Of a stretch of DNA of 64,000 nt, positions 28,637 to 44,432 are shown piece by piece. The DNA comes from Naegleria gruberi (lineage: Eukaryota), in assembly GCA_000004985.1 (NCBI GenBank), contig GG738847.1. One strand, written 5' to 3'. The notes below the pieces were generated by a model, which did not search any database, was not told where the DNA came from, and saw only the letters and a program-made list of their open reading frames with translations. Both the position numbers and the translations under genes were made by a program. Within the stretch, counting starts at the first letter, position 1. Each line of letters starts with the position of its first letter.

Positions 28637-28652
28637 AATCTACTAGTAGTTA

Positions 28653-30614: not shown

Positions 30615-32732
30615 TTAATTCAATTTTCTTACAATTAAGGGCCAACCAACTTGTATCACTGTATACTTATGAATGCTTTTTGATTTGTCAGCATCATTTT
30701 CATATTGAGCATATTGTTTGACTTGAGAAATTGCAGAATTCAAAATTGATCTGGCTACAACTTTCTCTTTGGCATGAGTAAGTACTTCCATTTCTAATAA
30801 TTCTTCATCAGTTTGTTTAGATAAATCTTTAAATATATTTTTAAAAATTTGCGGATTCCAATATTCAATATTGGAATATTTTGTTAAAGAATTTGGTCTA
30901 ATATGTTTGAATTCAATTATTAATACTTTTTTAGAAGTTCTTATCACAAGATCAGCACGTTTGATGTATTCCTTATTGTTAGAATTCTTTACATGATATT
31001 CCTTTTCAGCTTGAATTTTCAATTCTTTGTTTCTAAATAAACAATATGCTCTTAATGCAGATTCAATACTTGCTTGTAAACCTCCTTCAGACATTGAATT
31101 GTCATAAATAGTTTCTTGTTTTTCTAAAATATTATTGAGTAACATTCTCAAATTATCTTGGGTAGGTTCATTAATAAAAGTTGATACATCTTTTTCATGT
31201 AGAGATATAAGTCTACGTAACTGCTCTAAATATTGGACTTTTGCAATTTCATTTGGAATTAACAATTGTTTTGGGTTCATCTGTTTTGATGATTCTTTTG
31301 TGAAGGTAACCATACCGTGATAATACATGAATGATAAAGCATTATCACGAATCTTTTGTATATCTTCTTCATTGGATGGTGGATCAATAATCTCTCTTAA
31401 TTTCAGTGAAGGATAAATTGACTCTGTTACTTCTACATAATCTTTTGAAAGTAATTGTTGAATAATATCATTCGATACAACTGATGATGCCAAAGTTGCA
31501 AAAACGTTCTCACTGATCATTGTGTTGGTATCTGTTAATATTGATAATGGAATTTCTTGTTTTTGTAGAACAGCATTTCTGAAAGGTTCATCTTTTACAA
31601 GTTTGTTCAAAAAGAACATTGAAAGAGTTGTGTTGAATAGAGCATGTTTTGAACCAGGAAAATGATAACCTTTATAATACTTTTTCATGGTTGAAATGGT
31701 AATATCTTGATCATTTCCAATAATATCAATGTTATTTAATGCCATTCTCAAATCATTTTCTGTAAAACCAACCAAACCACCAAATATCTTATCAGAGGAA
31801 ATATTACTGGAAACATTATATCCAGATGCATCAGCAAGAGCAATAGGAGTGATACCAGTGATGATACTACGAAAATCTTGTAAACCAGTAGCGGAAGACT
31901 CTTTCAATCTTTCAAAGAAAGAACGAATTGGTGAAGATGTTGGATCTCCTCTCTTTCCTTCAACTATTAATTGATATTTTTCAGGATTTTCAAACATTAA
32001 TTTGTTTGCAAATCTATCATATTCATCAATTAATACCATTAATTTGCCTTTTCTCTTGACTAAAAGTTGGATAAGTTTTTGATAAGTATCAAATGAATCA
32101 TTTTGATTAATGCTAACCTCACCACCCATACCATAACATTCCAAAAATCCTTCAATGGTTGTATTGATTTTTGTGTGAAGTCGTTGATTAATATCATCAG
32201 CAGTACCATCAACTTGAATAGAAAAATCTAACTTTAAAACATAATATTGATTCTTTCCAGGTGTCCAATTATTTTCATCACCAATCCATAAACCAGAAAA
32301 TAATTCATCAAATTCATCTTTCTTGTTAATATCATAATATGATGAAAGCATTGATAATAATAGTGATTTTCCCCATCTCGGAGGACGAACAAAAAATAAT
32401 TGTTTTCCACTTTCTTCTAATAGAGGAATTAAATTAGTTTTATCAACATAAAATTGTTTACTTCTTCTGATGGAAGCAAAATCTGATTCACCATATGGAA
32501 AATATGGCACCAACAAATTTCCGTCACCAATATTTTTAAATTTAATATTTTCAACATTATTTGTTGTTGGTTTTAATGTATTTGAATAGTTTTTAGTTTG
32601 ATTCACTCTATTAATTGTAAACTTGTTAATATCATTAGTTAAATTATTAATTTTTAATATTGATCTGTTGATTTTGGGTGATGCAGTAAATAACTGCAAT
32701 CTATTGATTTTACGAAGGAAGGTATGTTTCAT
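30615..32732 (-). CDS. Predicted AAA-ATPase-like protein with C-terminal PD-(D/E)XK nuclease-like domain (AAA-ATPase_like / PDDEXK_9 architecture, DUF1703-type), 705 aa, apparently intronless
   Basis: Motifs YGESDFASIRRSKQFYVDKTNLIPLLEES...FFVRPPRWGKSLLLSML (hallmark of the 'predicted AAA-ATPase' family) and C-terminal ...DLVIRTSKKVLIIEFKH (PD-D/ExK core); A-rich context before ATG. Confidence 0.8.
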   Translation of the reverse strand: MKHTFLRKINRLQLFTASPKINRSILKINNLTNDINKFTINRVNQTKNYSNTLKPTTNNVENIKFKNIGDGNLLVPYFPYGESDFASIRRSKQFYVDKTNLIPLLEESGKQLFFVRPPRWGKSLLLSMLSSYYDINKKDEFDELFSGLWIGDENNWTPGKNQYYVLKLDFSIQVDGTADDINQRLHTKINTTIEGFLECYGMGGEVSINQNDSFDTYQKLIQLLVKRKGKLMVLIDEYDRFANKLMFENPEKYQLIVEGKRGDPTSSPIRSFFERLKESSATGLQDFRSIITGITPIALADASGYNVSSNISSDKIFGGLVGFTENDLRMALNNIDIIGNDQDITISTMKKYYKGYHFPGSKHALFNTTLSMFFLNKLVKDEPFRNAVLQKQEIPLSILTDTNTMISENVFATLASSVVSNDIIQQLLSKDYVEVTESIYPSLKLREIIDPPSNEEDIQKIRDNALSFMYYHGMVTFTKESSKQMNPKQLLIPNEIAKVQYLEQLRRLISLHEKDVSTFINEPTQDNLRMLLNNILEKQETIYDNSMSEGGLQASIESALRAYCLFRNKELKIQAEKEYHVKNSNNKEYIKRADLVIRTSKKVLIIEFKHIRPNSLTKYSNIEYWNPQIFKNIFKDLSKQTDEELLEMEVLTHAKEKVVARSILNSAISQVKQYAQYENDADKSKSIHKYTVIQVGWPLIVRKLN

Positions 32733-33512
32733 ATTTTTGATGATTTTTTTTTTAAGCTATTTGATGGCACCGTTGTGATGATTGTGATGGTGTGGAAGAG
32801 GAAATCCTACAAAGTTACATTGTTGGTGTTTATTTTAGCTTCATTGCTTATTGGTTGCGTTGCATGTGCTACCCGTTATGAATATTGGGTCATGTTCAAC
32901 AAGTACATGTTGTTGCGCTACTCTGAAGGTAAAAGTTCTTGACAATAATCTAGATTATGTTAATTATCCATGTGGTTGGTATACATGCCTGGGCGAAACC
33001 AGGAAATATTGGATTCAAAGGGTTATTATTTGTCTTTGAGTGGTTGGACTTCTAATGGGTTCTGTGATTCTTCTTCTGTTTATGCCACCTGTGTGAGTGG
33101 TTCTTGTTTGGTGATTCTGAAATTGTCTCATTGCCGGTTTTGAGATGAGTAATGTTTGGTAACGTAATTGTGTTTGGACTTCAAGAAGATAAACAACCAG
33201 GCATCAAAGTAAACTTATCTCTGTAAATTTAAGGTAACAAATGATCATTAGACCATGTGAACTTGGGAATTAAATCAAAAATGTAGTTTTAAAAGTATTT
33301 GAAAGTTGGTTTGTTGTTTTTTTATTGTACTGTTGTGTTCCCTTTTTCCTCAAGGGTATTGTGATGAAGCTGGTATACCCTTTAGAAAATGCAAACTTAA
33401 ATAAGCTACCAATCTCTTCAAATATAGAGCTTCTAATATTGATGAAAGCTGGAACAAAATTGTTTCCTGTTGTGGACTTCAAACCTTGGTAACATGAAAA
33501 GAACAATATATA

Positions 33513-33962
33513 ATGTTCAGCTCTTCTTTTCCTGTGCCAATAGTTTCTAGATTTAAAACAAATTTACCATCTATTTCTAATATTAATGAATATCTATCTT
33601 CTGATATGGCATTGGAAGGTTTCTTCCTGGGAGAATTTTTGCAGGTTGCATTGGAATCCATTGCAGATGCTACTTCAATGGTTAATGGAAACAAACTTAT
33701 TAACTATATTTATACAAGCCAACAATTGGTGATAAGAGAACAAAAATATGGGTTCTTCAATAGAGATGACAAGAGAAATCCATTATGTAATATGGGACTG
33801 AGAGATAGGTTTTTGTTTGAGATTAAGAACTTTAACACAAATATGGTATCAACAACAACTTTTCCAAAGCAACAATGCTGTTTGCAAGACTTGTTGGAAA
33901 ATCCAAAATCTGTTACCTTTACAAGACTTAAACAAATTGTGAGATTAAAGAGATCAACATGA
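33513..33962 (+). CDS. Hypothetical small ORF (149 aa) in the 1.95-kb divergent intergenic region; weak
   Basis: ORF only; contains several rare codons (CTG, AGG, GGG) relative to confident genes; no recognisable motif. Confidence 0.15.
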   Translation: MFSSSFPVPIVSRFKTNLPSISNINEYLSSDMALEGFFLGEFLQVALESIADATSMVNGNKLINYIYTSQQLVIREQKYGFFNRDDKRNPLCNMGLRDRFLFEIKNFNTNMVSTTTFPKQQCCLQDLLENPKSVTFTRLKQIVRLKRST

Positions 33963-42752: not shown

Positions 42753-44432
42753 TTATTCTGATTTTTGATAGACAAAATTTAAATATTGACGATAATTGGT
42801 TGGTGTTAAGGTACTGAATGAATTAAATAGTTCAGATCTGAAATCTCCGAGTGGAGGCAATTCACCATCTTTCAAATTCATTCTTGACATTGCTAACTCT
42901 CCACTCAAAGCTACATAGGAACAGCCAGCTGATGCTGCAATAAGTGGATTGGAACATACTGATGCAAATGCTGCTTGGATGGCTCCTGTCATACATCCAA
43001 CACCTGTTAAATGTTGCAAGTTAGGCTCATTGTGGTAAACGTGAATAATATCAGAACCGTCAGAGATTACATCAACTGGTCCTGTCATACAAACAACACA
43101 GCCAAACTTTTGAGCTAATTCCGAGACAACCTTATCCATCTCTGGGAGATTTGATGAATTGGATTCAGAATCAACACCCTTCAACTTGGCAAATCCAGCA
43201 TTTCCATGAATTCTTCCAATCTCACCATAATTTCCTTTCAATATGGTGATTTTATGATTCAATAAAAGTTCCAAAACAGTTGCTTCTCTTGCCTTTGTAG
43301 CTCCATATCCAACAGGATCGAGAATGACTGGTTTACCCAATTCATTTGCACGTTTAGCAGCCAAATGCATAGCCTTAATTGAATATTCATCCAAAGTTCC
43401 AATGTTAATAAGAACACCACTTGCTATTCCAACCATATCACTAATTTCCTCATGATATTGAGACATTACAGGTGAAGCACCAATTGCTAATAAAGAATTG
43501 GCTGTTTGAGTTGTAACAACATTATTGGTGAGATTGTGAATGAGTGGTCTTGTCTTTTTGATATCCAAAAGGGCTTGTACCATTTCTTCTCTAACTCTTG
43601 CCTTATCATTTGATTGATTCATTTGATAATAATTAATAGTACTTCTCAATTCTCTGGATGCTTGAAGAGCACTTTCAGCTCCAACTACACTTGAAACAAC
43701 AGCCACACCGTCCACACCACATTCCATTACTTGAGAAATATTTTCCTTTCCAATACCTCCTATAGCAACAAGTCCAACATGTTTTCCATTTCTTGTGGTA
43801 TGTCTGACATATGAAACTAATTCTTTGAGACCATCCAAACCAACTGCTTGACCAGCATCTTTCTTTGTAAGGGTTGGGAATATTGCATTTGTACCCAAAT
43901 AATCAGCTCTAACATTGTGTGAAAGAGCTTCATCAACTTGGTCAAAAGTGCCAACTGTCAGACCCAAAATCTTTGAATTACCAATCAGTTTTCTAACATA
44001 TTGAGGAGGTAAATCCTTTTGTCCAACATGAACACCATCAGCATCAATAGCAACAGCCAAATCAACACGATCATCAATCAAGAATGGAACTCCATGTCTT
44101 CTACAAATTTTTTGCAAACTTTTAGCTTGTTCCAACATTTGTCTTGTTGTTAATTGTTGTGGATATCTCTTTTCACGATATTGGATAATTGATGATCCTC
44201 CCTCAATGGATTGCTCAACAGTTTCTTCCAAAGAACGTTTTCCCATCTTTTCTGAAATGTCGGAATCTGTAACAACATACAATCCGTAATCAATTTTGGT
44301 ACTATATGAACATTTTTGAAGAGAATTAAATAGTGATGATGATGGCAGCAGGAATTGTCTTGTAGATTTTTGATGGTTTTCTTGTTTTAAAATGTTTTGT
44401 GTAAGCTTGAGAGTTCTTTTTGAAGTTTTCAT
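42753..44432 (-). CDS. THI6: Bifunctional thiamine-phosphate diphosphorylase (ThiE, N-terminal) / hydroxyethylthiazole kinase (ThiM, C-terminal), THI6-type fusion, 559 aa
   Basis: ThiE motifs LYVVTDSD...IIQYREK...GVHVGQKD...LGTNAIFPT..K...VAIGGI; ThiM motifs IHNLTNNVVTTQTANSLLAIGASPVMS...LINIGTL...GKPVILDPVGYGAT...ILKGNYGEI; aaaaaaaATG start. Confidence 0.9.
   Translation of the reverse strand: MKTSKRTLKLTQNILKQENHQKSTRQFLLPSSSLFNSLQKCSYSTKIDYGLYVVTDSDISEKMGKRSLEETVEQSIEGGSSIIQYREKRYPQQLTTRQMLEQAKSLQKICRRHGVPFLIDDRVDLAVAIDADGVHVGQKDLPPQYVRKLIGNSKILGLTVGTFDQVDEALSHNVRADYLGTNAIFPTLTKKDAGQAVGLDGLKELVSYVRHTTRNGKHVGLVAIGGIGKENISQVMECGVDGVAVVSSVVGAESALQASRELRSTINYYQMNQSNDKARVREEMVQALLDIKKTRPLIHNLTNNVVTTQTANSLLAIGASPVMSQYHEEISDMVGIASGVLINIGTLDEYSIKAMHLAAKRANELGKPVILDPVGYGATKAREATVLELLLNHKITILKGNYGEIGRIHGNAGFAKLKGVDSESNSSNLPEMDKVVSELAQKFGCVVCMTGPVDVISDGSDIIHVYHNEPNLQHLTGVGCMTGAIQAAFASVCSNPLIAASAGCSYVALSGELAMSRMNLKDGELPPLGDFRSELFNSFSTLTPTNYRQYLNFVYQKSE

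What the first reader, a model, noticed from the sequence alone, without database searches (positions are those of the whole stretch)
30615..32732. Prokaryote-type 'predicted AAA-ATPase' + PD-(D/E)XK nuclease-domain protein in a eukaryotic context
The motif block YGESDFASIRRSKQFYVDKTNLIPLL...FFVRPPRWGKSLLLSML and the C-terminal DLVIRTSKKVLIIEFK core match the AAA-ATPase_like/PDDEXK_9 (DUF1703) architecture. That architecture is abundant in Bacteroidetes, some archaea and a scattering of eukaryotic microbes, and is often interpreted as nucleic-acid-processing or defence-related. Here it is intronless but has native-looking AT-rich codon usage and an A-tract start, so any transfer would be ancient. 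It also has a 95-aa N/K/T-rich N-terminal extension not present in bacterial homologs.
Basis: partly seen in the sequence, partly recalled or inferred. Interest (0 to 1): 0.5.

Follow-up and report, generated by a model that had tools for sequence, protein, structure and literature searches.

The report
Mitochondria-addressed bacterial-type ATPase-nuclease in Naegleria
This Naegleria nuclear gene encodes a bacterial-type ATPase fused to a DNA-cutting domain, and in many unrelated protists its relatives carry an N-terminal tag that looks like a mitochondrial import signal, which suggests an undescribed organelle factor of unknown function.

Summary

The top ~50 homologs are eukaryotic: Naegleria, Willaertia, Balamuthia, Clydonella, Flabellula, Amoeboaphelidium, Pyropia and many unnamed. 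They separate from all sampled bacteria in 100% of NJ bootstraps. This points to one old acquisition, not a Naegleria-specific transfer.

The N-terminal extension is 77 aa, not 95. An extension occurs at this position across the eukaryotic clade and is absent from bacteria. It is disordered, basic and nearly free of acidic residues, often textbook presequence-like (MLRR..., RRFST).

Best reading: a mitochondrion-imported, ATP-switched nuclease. Localisation and activity are inferred, not shown. No defence-system match and no expansion were found. Interest is moderate.

The parts
30615..32732 (-). Complete intronless gene (705 codons plus TAA stop at 30615-30617). It is the ortholog of N. gruberi NAEGRDRAFT_78045.
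   Evidence: ORF listing. 95% aa identity to P0002 over the same length, and 98% to P0001. 99.0% nucleotide identity to metagenome locus L002.
32733..32759 (-). 5' leader with an A10 tract (32753-32744) and an in-frame TAG (32759-32757) that fixes the ATG at 32732 as the first possible start.
   Evidence: Sequence read.
32502..32732 (-). N-terminal extension, residues 1-77: putative mitochondrial presequence plus linker. There is no acidic residue before D34 and 6 K/R in the first 25 residues. The maximal helical hydrophobic moment is 0.74. The region is disordered in the model.
   Evidence: composition, hydrophobic moment. (pLDDT below 50 for residues 1-73). Bacterial homologs lack it.
32580..32597 (-). 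TKNYSN (residues 46-51): the only motif conserved among heterolobosean extensions, [IT][RK]x[FY]S[TN]. It resembles an R-3 processing-peptidase site, with K in place of R in this gene.
   Evidence: Alignment of seven heterolobosean N-termini. R-3 pattern hits in the paralogs. The cleavage role is inferred.
31818..32501 (-). P-loop ATPase alpha/beta domain (residues 78-305), PF09820.
32364..32387 (-). Variant Walker A, R116-P-P-R119-W-G121-K122-S123.
   Evidence: R116, P117, R119, G121 and K122 are invariant in 75 of 75 aligned homologs. Same motif as the family definition RPRRFGKS (PMC1913061).
32016..32027 (-). Walker B, D236-E237-Y238-D239.
   Evidence: D236 and D239 are invariant; E237 is present in 74 of 75.
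32034..32243 (-). Hypervariable patch (residues 164-233: a strand plus two inserted helices between Walker A and Walker B). It holds 30 of the 36 differences from the NEG-M ortholog.
31113..31817 (-). Helical lid and linker region (residues 306-540) between the ATPase and nuclease domains. A winged-helix-like part is inferred from the ORC/Cdc6 and STAND matches, not delimited directly.
30618..31112 (-). C-terminal PD-(D/E)XK (restriction-endonuclease-like) domain, residues 541-705. Motif I is E549, motif II D594, motif III E607-x-K609, motif IV Q670.
30906..30953 (-). Catalytic core D594...E607-F-K609 (ADLVIRTSKKVLIIEFK).
30756..30899 (-). Eukaryote-clade insertion of about 40-48 aa (residues ~612-659) between the third core strand and the motif IV helix. 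It explains the split, sub-threshold Pfam PF08011 match.

Best explanation
The gene encodes a nuclear-encoded member of the DUF1703 family. The protein has a variant P-loop AAA+-like ATPase, a helical region and a C-terminal PD-(D/E)XK nuclease. It belongs to a eukaryote-only clade that descends from one old acquisition from bacteria. Members of this clade gained an N-terminal presequence.

Proposed mechanism, step by step:
1. The 77-aa basic, acid-free, partly amphipathic N-terminus directs import into the mitochondrion and is removed, perhaps near K47-N-Y|S50 (inferred).
2. The mature protein of about 75 kDa binds ATP through RPPRWGKS and DEYD (motifs shown, activity inferred).
3. As in its closest structural relatives (archaeal PF01637 ATPases, ORC/Cdc6, STAND NTPases), the nucleotide state drives a conformational or oligomerisation switch (inferred from fold).
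4. The switch licenses the metal-dependent E549/D594/E607/K609 nuclease site to cut nucleic acid, most likely organellar DNA, for genome maintenance or surveillance (site shown intact; substrate and role inferred).
For: Family membership: PF09820 at 8e-42. Walker A and B are invariant in 75 of 75 homologs. The nuclease domain aligns with bacterial PDDEXK_9 domains at 97.5% probability, and all four motifs are kept in this gene.

Eukaryotic clade: named members are Naegleria spp., Willaertia, Balamuthia, Clydonella, Flabellula, Amoeboaphelidium and Pyropia. The P0028 contig carries a Ty3-type retroelement. The split between eukaryote-type and bacterial sequences is recovered in 100/100 and 50/50 NJ bootstraps.

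Presequence: every complete eukaryote-type homolog listed has an extension before FPYG, mostly 20-100 aa (two have only 4 and 12 aa). Bacterial homologs have 2-11 aa, and all 80 prokaryotic loci begin matching at about query residue 78-80. Acidic residues in the first 25 aa average 0.31, against 3.2 expected from the mature parts, and the median first acidic residue is at position 33 against 9 in bacteria. Of 23 non-redundant complete clade members with an extension of at least 18 aa, 16 have no acidic residue in the first 25 aa, where the per-sequence expectation is 0.034. Many are textbook presequences, for example MFPVFFRRVALSSAALRRFAATRATPL|FPYG, MLVRRAFAGRRFLSTTTR and MLRFASRLF. Heterolobosean extensions share only an [RK]x[FY]S[TN] motif. 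Residues 1-73 are disordered in the model.
Against: No localisation data exist. The protein was not found in the stored part of the N. gruberi mitochondrial proteome table, but that file is truncated, so this is uninformative. No dedicated targeting predictor could be run.

The charge criterion alone is not specific. The neighbouring MutS homolog, with an NLS-like KKKK N-terminus, also passes it, although it fails on amphipathicity (0.31 against 0.74). This gene's extension is long and K/N-rich rather than R-rich. A minority of clade members have acidic N-termini (P0039, P0157, P0165, P0148).

The nuclease triad is altered in 15 of 37 eukaryotic members, including the Willaertia ortholog (D to R), while it is intact in 38 of 38 bacteria. 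Cleavage may therefore not be the conserved function in eukaryotes.

No member of the family has a tested activity in the literature found. No alphaproteobacterial affinity is seen.
Confidence: 0.5

Rival explanations
1. The protein is a cytosolic or nuclear conflict (innate-immunity-like) protein: a STAND/ORC-like NTPase with a nuclease effector that attacks foreign DNA such as giant-virus genomes. On this reading the N-terminal extension is only a disordered, basic linker or a nuclear localisation signal.
For: The closest folds include Avs3, Avs5, plant NLRs, CED-4 and BrxC. The nuclease domain resembles restriction-enzyme, Cas4 and CinB domains. A 70-aa patch diverges by 43% between two N. 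gruberi-type alleles while the rest is about 99% identical, which recalls diversifying surfaces of immune proteins. Bacterial DUF1703 genes are patchy and expanded in some symbionts. A basic N-terminus also occurs on a neighbouring nuclear protein.
Against: No PADLOC defence model matched beyond noise. There is no sensor repeat domain and no expansion. Independent lineages have N-termini of the MLRR.../RRFST type with hydrophobic and amphipathic character, not K-runs.
Confidence: 0.2
2. The protein is organelle-targeted but its conserved activity is not cleavage. The ATPase acts as a nucleic-acid-binding switch or loader, and the PD-(D/E)XK domain serves mainly as a binding or oligomerisation module.
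For: The ATPase motifs are invariant in 37 of 37 eukaryotic members, but at least one of D594, E607 and K609 is replaced in 15 of 37. Examples are N. lovaniensis paralogs with D to S and K to T, Willaertia with D to R, and Amoeboaphelidium with K to G. The fold is closest to ORC/Cdc6-type and PF01637 ATPases.
Against: This particular gene keeps all five nuclease residues. All 38 bacterial relatives keep them too. Migration of the catalytic lysine is known in the PD-(D/E)XK superfamily (PMC1913061), so some of the apparent losses may not be inactivating.
Confidence: 0.15
3. The gene is a recent horizontal transfer into Naegleria, bacterial contamination of the assembly, or cargo of a mobile element.
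For: The family is overwhelmingly prokaryotic. The gene lies about 2 kb from the start of the contig sequence. Its GC3 of 0.178 is somewhat below that of its neighbours.
Against: It is flanked on the same contig by eIF4E, CTU2, UPF1 and other eukaryotic genes. Orthologs or paralogs occur in N. gruberi NEG-M, N. fowleri, N. lovaniensis and Willaertia, and Heterolobosea are monophyletic in 100/100 bootstraps. The best bacterial identity is only 31-35%. No terminal inverted or long terminal repeats flank the gene.
Confidence: 0.03

Closest known systems
Bacterial and archaeal DUF1703 proteins (PF09820 AAA-ATPase_like plus PF08011 PDDEXK_9), defined by Knizewski et al. 2007 (PMC1913061); expanded in Cardinium cCpun (Siozios et al. 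2019, PMC6387759)
   Same: [quoted passage not shown] Homology extends over the whole mature protein.
   Different: This gene is eukaryotic, nuclear-encoded and at most 35% identical to any prokaryotic locus found. It carries a 77-aa presequence-like extension and a roughly 40-aa insertion in the nuclease domain that pushes PF08011 below threshold. The 2012 PD-(D/E)XK catalogue lists the family as bacterial, mostly Bacteroidetes. No activity is known for any member.
Archaeal PF01637 AAA+ ATPases SSO1545 (PDB 2fna) and PAB2304 (PDB 2qen)
   Different: Sequence identity is only 13-14%. They have no PD-(D/E)XK domain. They are not detected by sequence search against PDB.
STAND NTPases with nuclease effectors (Avs3/Avs5, NLR/NB-ARC, CED-4/Apaf-1) and ORC/Cdc6 initiators
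   Different: There are no TPR, LRR or WD40 sensor repeats. The nuclease is C-terminal rather than N-terminal. The Walker A is deviant. STAND-specific motifs were not examined. No defence-system profile matched.
Known mitochondrial PD-(D/E)XK nucleases (MGME1, DNA2, EXO5)
   Different: There is no specific relationship, since restriction-enzyme, Cas4 and CinB domains score higher. None of these nucleases is fused to this ATPase.

Membership tests
DUF1703 (PF09820 + PF08011) | N-terminal PF09820 AAA-ATPase_like domain above Pfam's gathering score | tested here: met
   143.7 bits against a cut-off of 26.1, E 8.1e-42, residues 79-301.
DUF1703 (PF09820 + PF08011) | Variant Walker A RPxR[FW]GK[ST] and Walker B DEYD | tested here: met
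   RPPRWGKS at 116-123 and DEYD at 236-239. These residues are invariant across 75 homologs. The family definition is in PMC1913061.
DUF1703 (PF09820 + PF08011) | C-terminal PF08011 PDDEXK_9 match above Pfam's gathering score | tested here: not met
   15.8 bits (18.5 for the isolated C-terminus) against a cut-off of 25.5, split into two stretches. No eukaryote-type homolog carries a precomputed PF08011 hit.
DUF1703 (PF09820 + PF08011) | Homology of the C-terminal domain to the PDDEXK_9 domain of bacterial members | tested here: met
   Independently aligned eukaryotic and bacterial C-terminal profiles give hhalign probability 97.5%, E 6.2e-12, with motifs I-IV in register.
DUF1703 (PF09820 + PF08011) | [quoted passage not shown] | tested here: met
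DUF1703 (PF09820 + PF08011) | ATPase and nuclease catalytic activity | not testable with these tools
   No biochemical data were found for any member.
STAND NTPases | NTPase-helical-winged-helix module followed by sensor repeats (TPR, LRR, WD40) | tested here: not met
   The fold of the NTPase module resembles STAND proteins, but no repeat domain is present. The C-terminus is a nuclease.
Classical AAA+ (ORC/Cdc6 clade) | Canonical GxxxxGK[ST] P-loop, sensor 1 polar residue and sensor 2 / arginine finger | tested here: inconclusive
Known anti-phage defence systems (PADLOC-DB v2) | Match to a profile of a described defence protein | tested here: not met
   The only hit is DndE at E 0.025, 13.3 bits, over 55 residues, which is noise.
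Mitochondrial presequence-bearing proteins | N-terminal 20-80 aa that is basic, almost free of acidic residues, able to form an amphipathic helix, and absent from bacterial homologs | tested here: met
   The query has 0 D/E and 6 K/R in the first 25 aa, its first acidic residue at position 34, and a hydrophobic moment of 0.74. Bacterial homologs start at the domain.
Mitochondrial presequence-bearing proteins | Positive call by a trained predictor (TargetP, MitoFates) and a processing-peptidase site | not testable with these tools
   No predictor is available offline. Only a conserved [RK]x[FY]S[TN] motif was seen.
Mitochondrial presequence-bearing proteins | Experimental localisation in mitochondria | not testable with these tools
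   The N. gruberi mitochondrial proteome table (PMC8134430, Supplementary Data 2) is held only in truncated form, and the protein was not found in the held part.

The most novel reading that the evidence does not exclude
A bacterial ATP-dependent PD-(D/E)XK nuclease was captured early in eukaryote evolution, possibly before the last common ancestor. It acquired a presequence and has persisted as a mitochondrial (or, in algae, organellar) genome maintenance or surveillance factor in Heterolobosea, Amoebozoa, aphelids, red algae and other protists, while being lost from animals, fungi and plants. That would make it an unrecognised component of organelle DNA metabolism, structurally akin to STAND/ORC-type switches coupled to a restriction-like effector.
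Probability: 0.3. Interest if true: 0.7.

Novelty: new variant of a known kind. Interest (0 to 1): 0.45.

Why it matters
DUF1703 is a very large family (18,584 cluster representatives at E <= 0.001) with no tested function. The 2012 PD-(D/E)XK catalogue lists it as bacterial. This work shows a coherent eukaryotic clade whose members carry presequence-like N-termini. That gives the family a concrete and testable cellular address. It adds a candidate to the poorly known set of organelle DNA and RNA enzymes of protists. It also offers a case of a bacterial ATPase-nuclease being domesticated by adding a targeting peptide. If the localisation fails, the gene is still a clean example of an old bacterium-to-eukaryote acquisition whose nuclease domain standard Pfam annotation misses.

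Tried and rejected
1. MutS link. P0161 is a single 1428-aa ORF with MutS_III and MutS_V upstream of a eukaryote-type DUF1703 module. Its MutS part is an MSH5 ortholog, closest to stramenopile proteins, with an internal duplication. No other protein in the search combines MutS with PF09820. I judge it a merged gene call, not functional evidence.
2. Defence-system membership. PADLOC gave only noise and NCBIfam gave nothing.
3. Sequence search of the PDB with the family profile found no hit at E <= 1. Foldseek against the PDB gave only weak ORC/Cdc6 hits, with MGME1 at E 0.03. The afdb50 library was unavailable.
4. Experimental localisation. The N. gruberi mitochondrial proteome supplement is truncated in the held copy, and there was no hit for the N-terminal peptide. 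My first query there used a guessed accession and was meaningless.
5. Exact-sequence contig look-ups for the window protein and for P0002 found nothing on record. Synteny with NEG-M was therefore not checked.
6. Mobile-element signature. Only short, chance-level repeats lie around the gene.
7. Conserved bacterial gene neighbourhood. Three loci showed unrelated neighbours: redox enzymes, protein kinases, PKD proteins and one Uma2 nuclease. This agrees with the literature statement that the context is not conserved.
8. Alphaproteobacterial (endosymbiont) origin. The closest prokaryotic loci are Desulfobacterota, Gammaproteobacteria and Chloroflexota. There is no support, and a donor cannot be named.
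9. Literature. There was no hit for the locus tag. Only a handful of papers mention the family, and none of the passages I read describes a eukaryotic or mitochondrial clade.
Full report
**Observation.** Window positions 1-28636 are N, so real sequence starts at 28637. The ORF at 30615..32732 on the minus strand is uninterrupted and encodes 705 aa. Its ATG is preceded by an A10 tract and by an in-frame TAG nine codons upstream, so the start is fixed unless there is an intron. The next methionine lies beyond the Walker A motif. The neighbouring ORFs encode eIF4E, CTU2, UPF1, a MutS homolog, a class III cyclase, ornithine decarboxylase and a ThiE/ThiM fusion, so this is an ordinary eukaryotic nuclear region. 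The gene is at least as AT-rich as its neighbours: GC 0.284 and GC3 0.178 against 0.21-0.32. The protein is 95% identical to N. gruberi NAEGRDRAFT_78045 at the same length and 98% identical to a metagenome protein. The window therefore comes from a Naegleria gruberi-like amoeba.

**Domains.** PF09820 (AAA-ATPase_like) matches residues 79-301 at 8.1e-42. PF08011 (PDDEXK_9) reaches only 15.8 bits against a cut-off of 25.5, in two stretches. None of the eukaryote-type homologs has a precomputed PF08011 hit, whereas the bacterial ones do. I therefore tested the C-terminus in three ways.
- In a 75-sequence alignment the query aligns with the bacterial PDDEXK_9-positive proteins to their last residue. 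The four family motifs are in register: E549, D594, E607-x-K609 and Q670.
- Eukaryotic and bacterial C-termini, re-aligned separately, match at hhalign probability 97.5%, E 6e-12. The comparison shows a roughly 40-aa eukaryote-specific insertion after the ExK strand, which explains the split Pfam hit.

**Relatives and origin.** The best ~50 hits are not bacterial. Named ones are N. fowleri, three N. lovaniensis paralogs, two Willaertia proteins, Balamuthia, Amoeboaphelidium, Clydonella, Flabellula and Pyropia, plus an MMETSP transcript and many metagenome proteins. One of those metagenome proteins lies on a contig with a Ty3-type retroelement. Bacterial proteins follow at 27-35% identity.
- In NJ trees the eukaryote-type sequences are separated from all sampled bacteria in 100/100 bootstraps (75 sequences) and in 50/50 bootstraps (105 sequences including Pyropia). 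Heterolobosea are monophyletic in 100/100.
- The nearest bacterial group contains Desulfosarcina, Desulfamplus and Electrothrix. A scan of species-representative genomes adds Competibacteraceae, Chromatiales, Thiothrix and Chloroflexota. There is no alphaproteobacterial signal.
- The whole family has 18,584 cluster representatives at E <= 0.001.

The simplest reading is one old transfer from bacteria into eukaryotes, followed by inheritance with many losses or by some eukaryote-to-eukaryote spread. It is not a Naegleria-specific event. Three caveats apply: the trees are distance trees, most clade members are unnamed, and the eukaryote set was delimited partly from the tree itself.

**N-terminal extension.** It is 77 aa, not 95. 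The key result is comparative. Every complete eukaryote-type homolog listed has extra sequence before the conserved FPYG..F..IR start, mostly 20-100 aa (two have only 4 and 12 aa). Bacterial homologs begin 2-11 aa before it. All 80 best prokaryotic loci start matching at about query residue 78-80.
- The extensions are not alignable between lineages but share a composition. They average 0.31 acidic and 3.9 basic residues in the first 25 aa, where 3.2 acidic would be expected from the mature parts. The median first acidic residue is at position 33, against 9 in bacteria.
- Among 23 non-redundant complete clade members with an extension of at least 18 aa, 16 have no acidic residue in the first 25 aa, where about 0.8 would be expected.
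- Many read like textbook mitochondrial presequences, for example MFPVFFRRVALSSAALRRFAATRATPL, MLVRRAFAGRRFLSTTTR, MLRFASRLFNAPGV and MLRKCHATLLVYNARSF.
- The seven heterolobosean extensions share only an [IT][RK]x[FY]S[TN] motif 20-30 residues before FPYG. It is TKNYSN in this gene and IRSFST or IRRFST in others, and it resembles an R-3 processing site.
- The query has no acidic residue before D34, six K/R in the first 25 aa and a hydrophobic moment of 0.74.

A control matters here. The neighbouring MutS homolog, with an NLS-like lysine run, also passes the charge test but has a moment of only 0.31. The charge test alone is therefore not specific. A minority of clade members have acidic N-termini. 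I could not run a trained predictor, and the only relevant proteome table is truncated in the held copy. Mitochondrial import is a well-supported inference, not a demonstrated fact. I put it at roughly two in three.

**Function.** No member of DUF1703 has a tested activity in the literature I could find. The PADLOC library gives no real match. Three bacterial loci show no shared neighbours, in line with the published remark that the context is not conserved. The mechanism I commit to is therefore built from anatomy. An ORC/STAND-like nucleotide switch is coupled to a C-terminal metal-dependent nuclease, acting after import on organellar nucleic acid, most likely DNA.

One observation cuts against cleavage being the conserved eukaryotic role. 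The D/E/K triad is intact in 38 of 38 bacterial sequences but altered in 15 of 37 eukaryotic ones, including the Willaertia ortholog and two N. lovaniensis paralogs. The ATPase motifs are never altered. The gene in this window keeps the full nuclease site.

**Rejected leads.**
- A 1428-aa metagenome ORF joins MutS domains to a eukaryote-type DUF1703 module. Its MutS part is an MSH5 ortholog, it is unique in combining the two, and I take it for a merged gene call.
- No inverted or long terminal repeats flank the gene.
- There is no second copy in the window. N. gruberi has at least one further, partial paralog (P0153). The family is not expanded here.

**Verdict.** This is not an odd prokaryotic gene stranded in a eukaryote. 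It is a member of a eukaryote-wide, presequence-bearing clade of the DUF1703 ATPase-nuclease family. It is a new variant of a known but functionally uncharacterised kind, and interest is moderate.

Noticed in passing
window 32034-32243 (-), residues 164-233 of the gene: 30 of the 36 amino-acid differences from the N. gruberi NEG-M ortholog fall in this 70-aa patch, about 43% divergence against about 1% elsewhere. A metagenome relative (L002) carries the window-type patch. Both versions are equally distant from outgroups. This looks like two old haplotypes, gene conversion, or diversifying selection on one surface of the ATPase domain.
   Followed up: partly
L083 3574-7860 (protein P0161): A single 1428-aa ORF on a eukaryote-like metagenome contig joins an MSH5-type MutS fragment, which has an internal duplication, to a eukaryote-type DUF1703 module. 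No other protein combines the two, so it is probably a merged gene call. The MSH5 part is closest to stramenopile proteins, hinting that the clade also occurs in stramenopiles.
   Followed up: yes
proteins P0008, P0009 (N. lovaniensis) and P0003 (Willaertia); alignment A1: Some heterolobosean paralogs and orthologs have lost nuclease catalytic residues (D to S or R, K to T) while keeping perfect Walker motifs. They may be non-catalytic partners or may have shifted function.
   Followed up: partly
window 42753-44432 (-): The ThiE/ThiM (TMP synthase plus hydroxyethylthiazole kinase) fusion protein starts MKTSKRTLKLTQNILKQ, with 7 K/R and 1 acidic residue in the first 25 aa and a hydrophobic moment of 0.66. 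This also looks presequence-like.
   Followed up: no
window 33513-33962 (+): A 149-aa ORF with no Pfam match lies in the 1.9-kb gap upstream of the gene. An ORF of the same length is called at the matching place in the related metagenome contig L002 (1952-2401). It may be a small gene or an exon.
   Followed up: no
window 1-28636 and 57393-57442: The first 28.6 kb of the window are N, and a 50-N gap interrupts the ORF at 56403-57494. Features near these edges cannot be assessed.
   Followed up: no
proteins P0219, P0233: Some relatives of unknown taxon (no source names) carry Sel1/TPR repeats instead of the nuclease after the PF09820 ATPase. This is a STAND-like architecture within the same ATPase family.
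   Followed up: no
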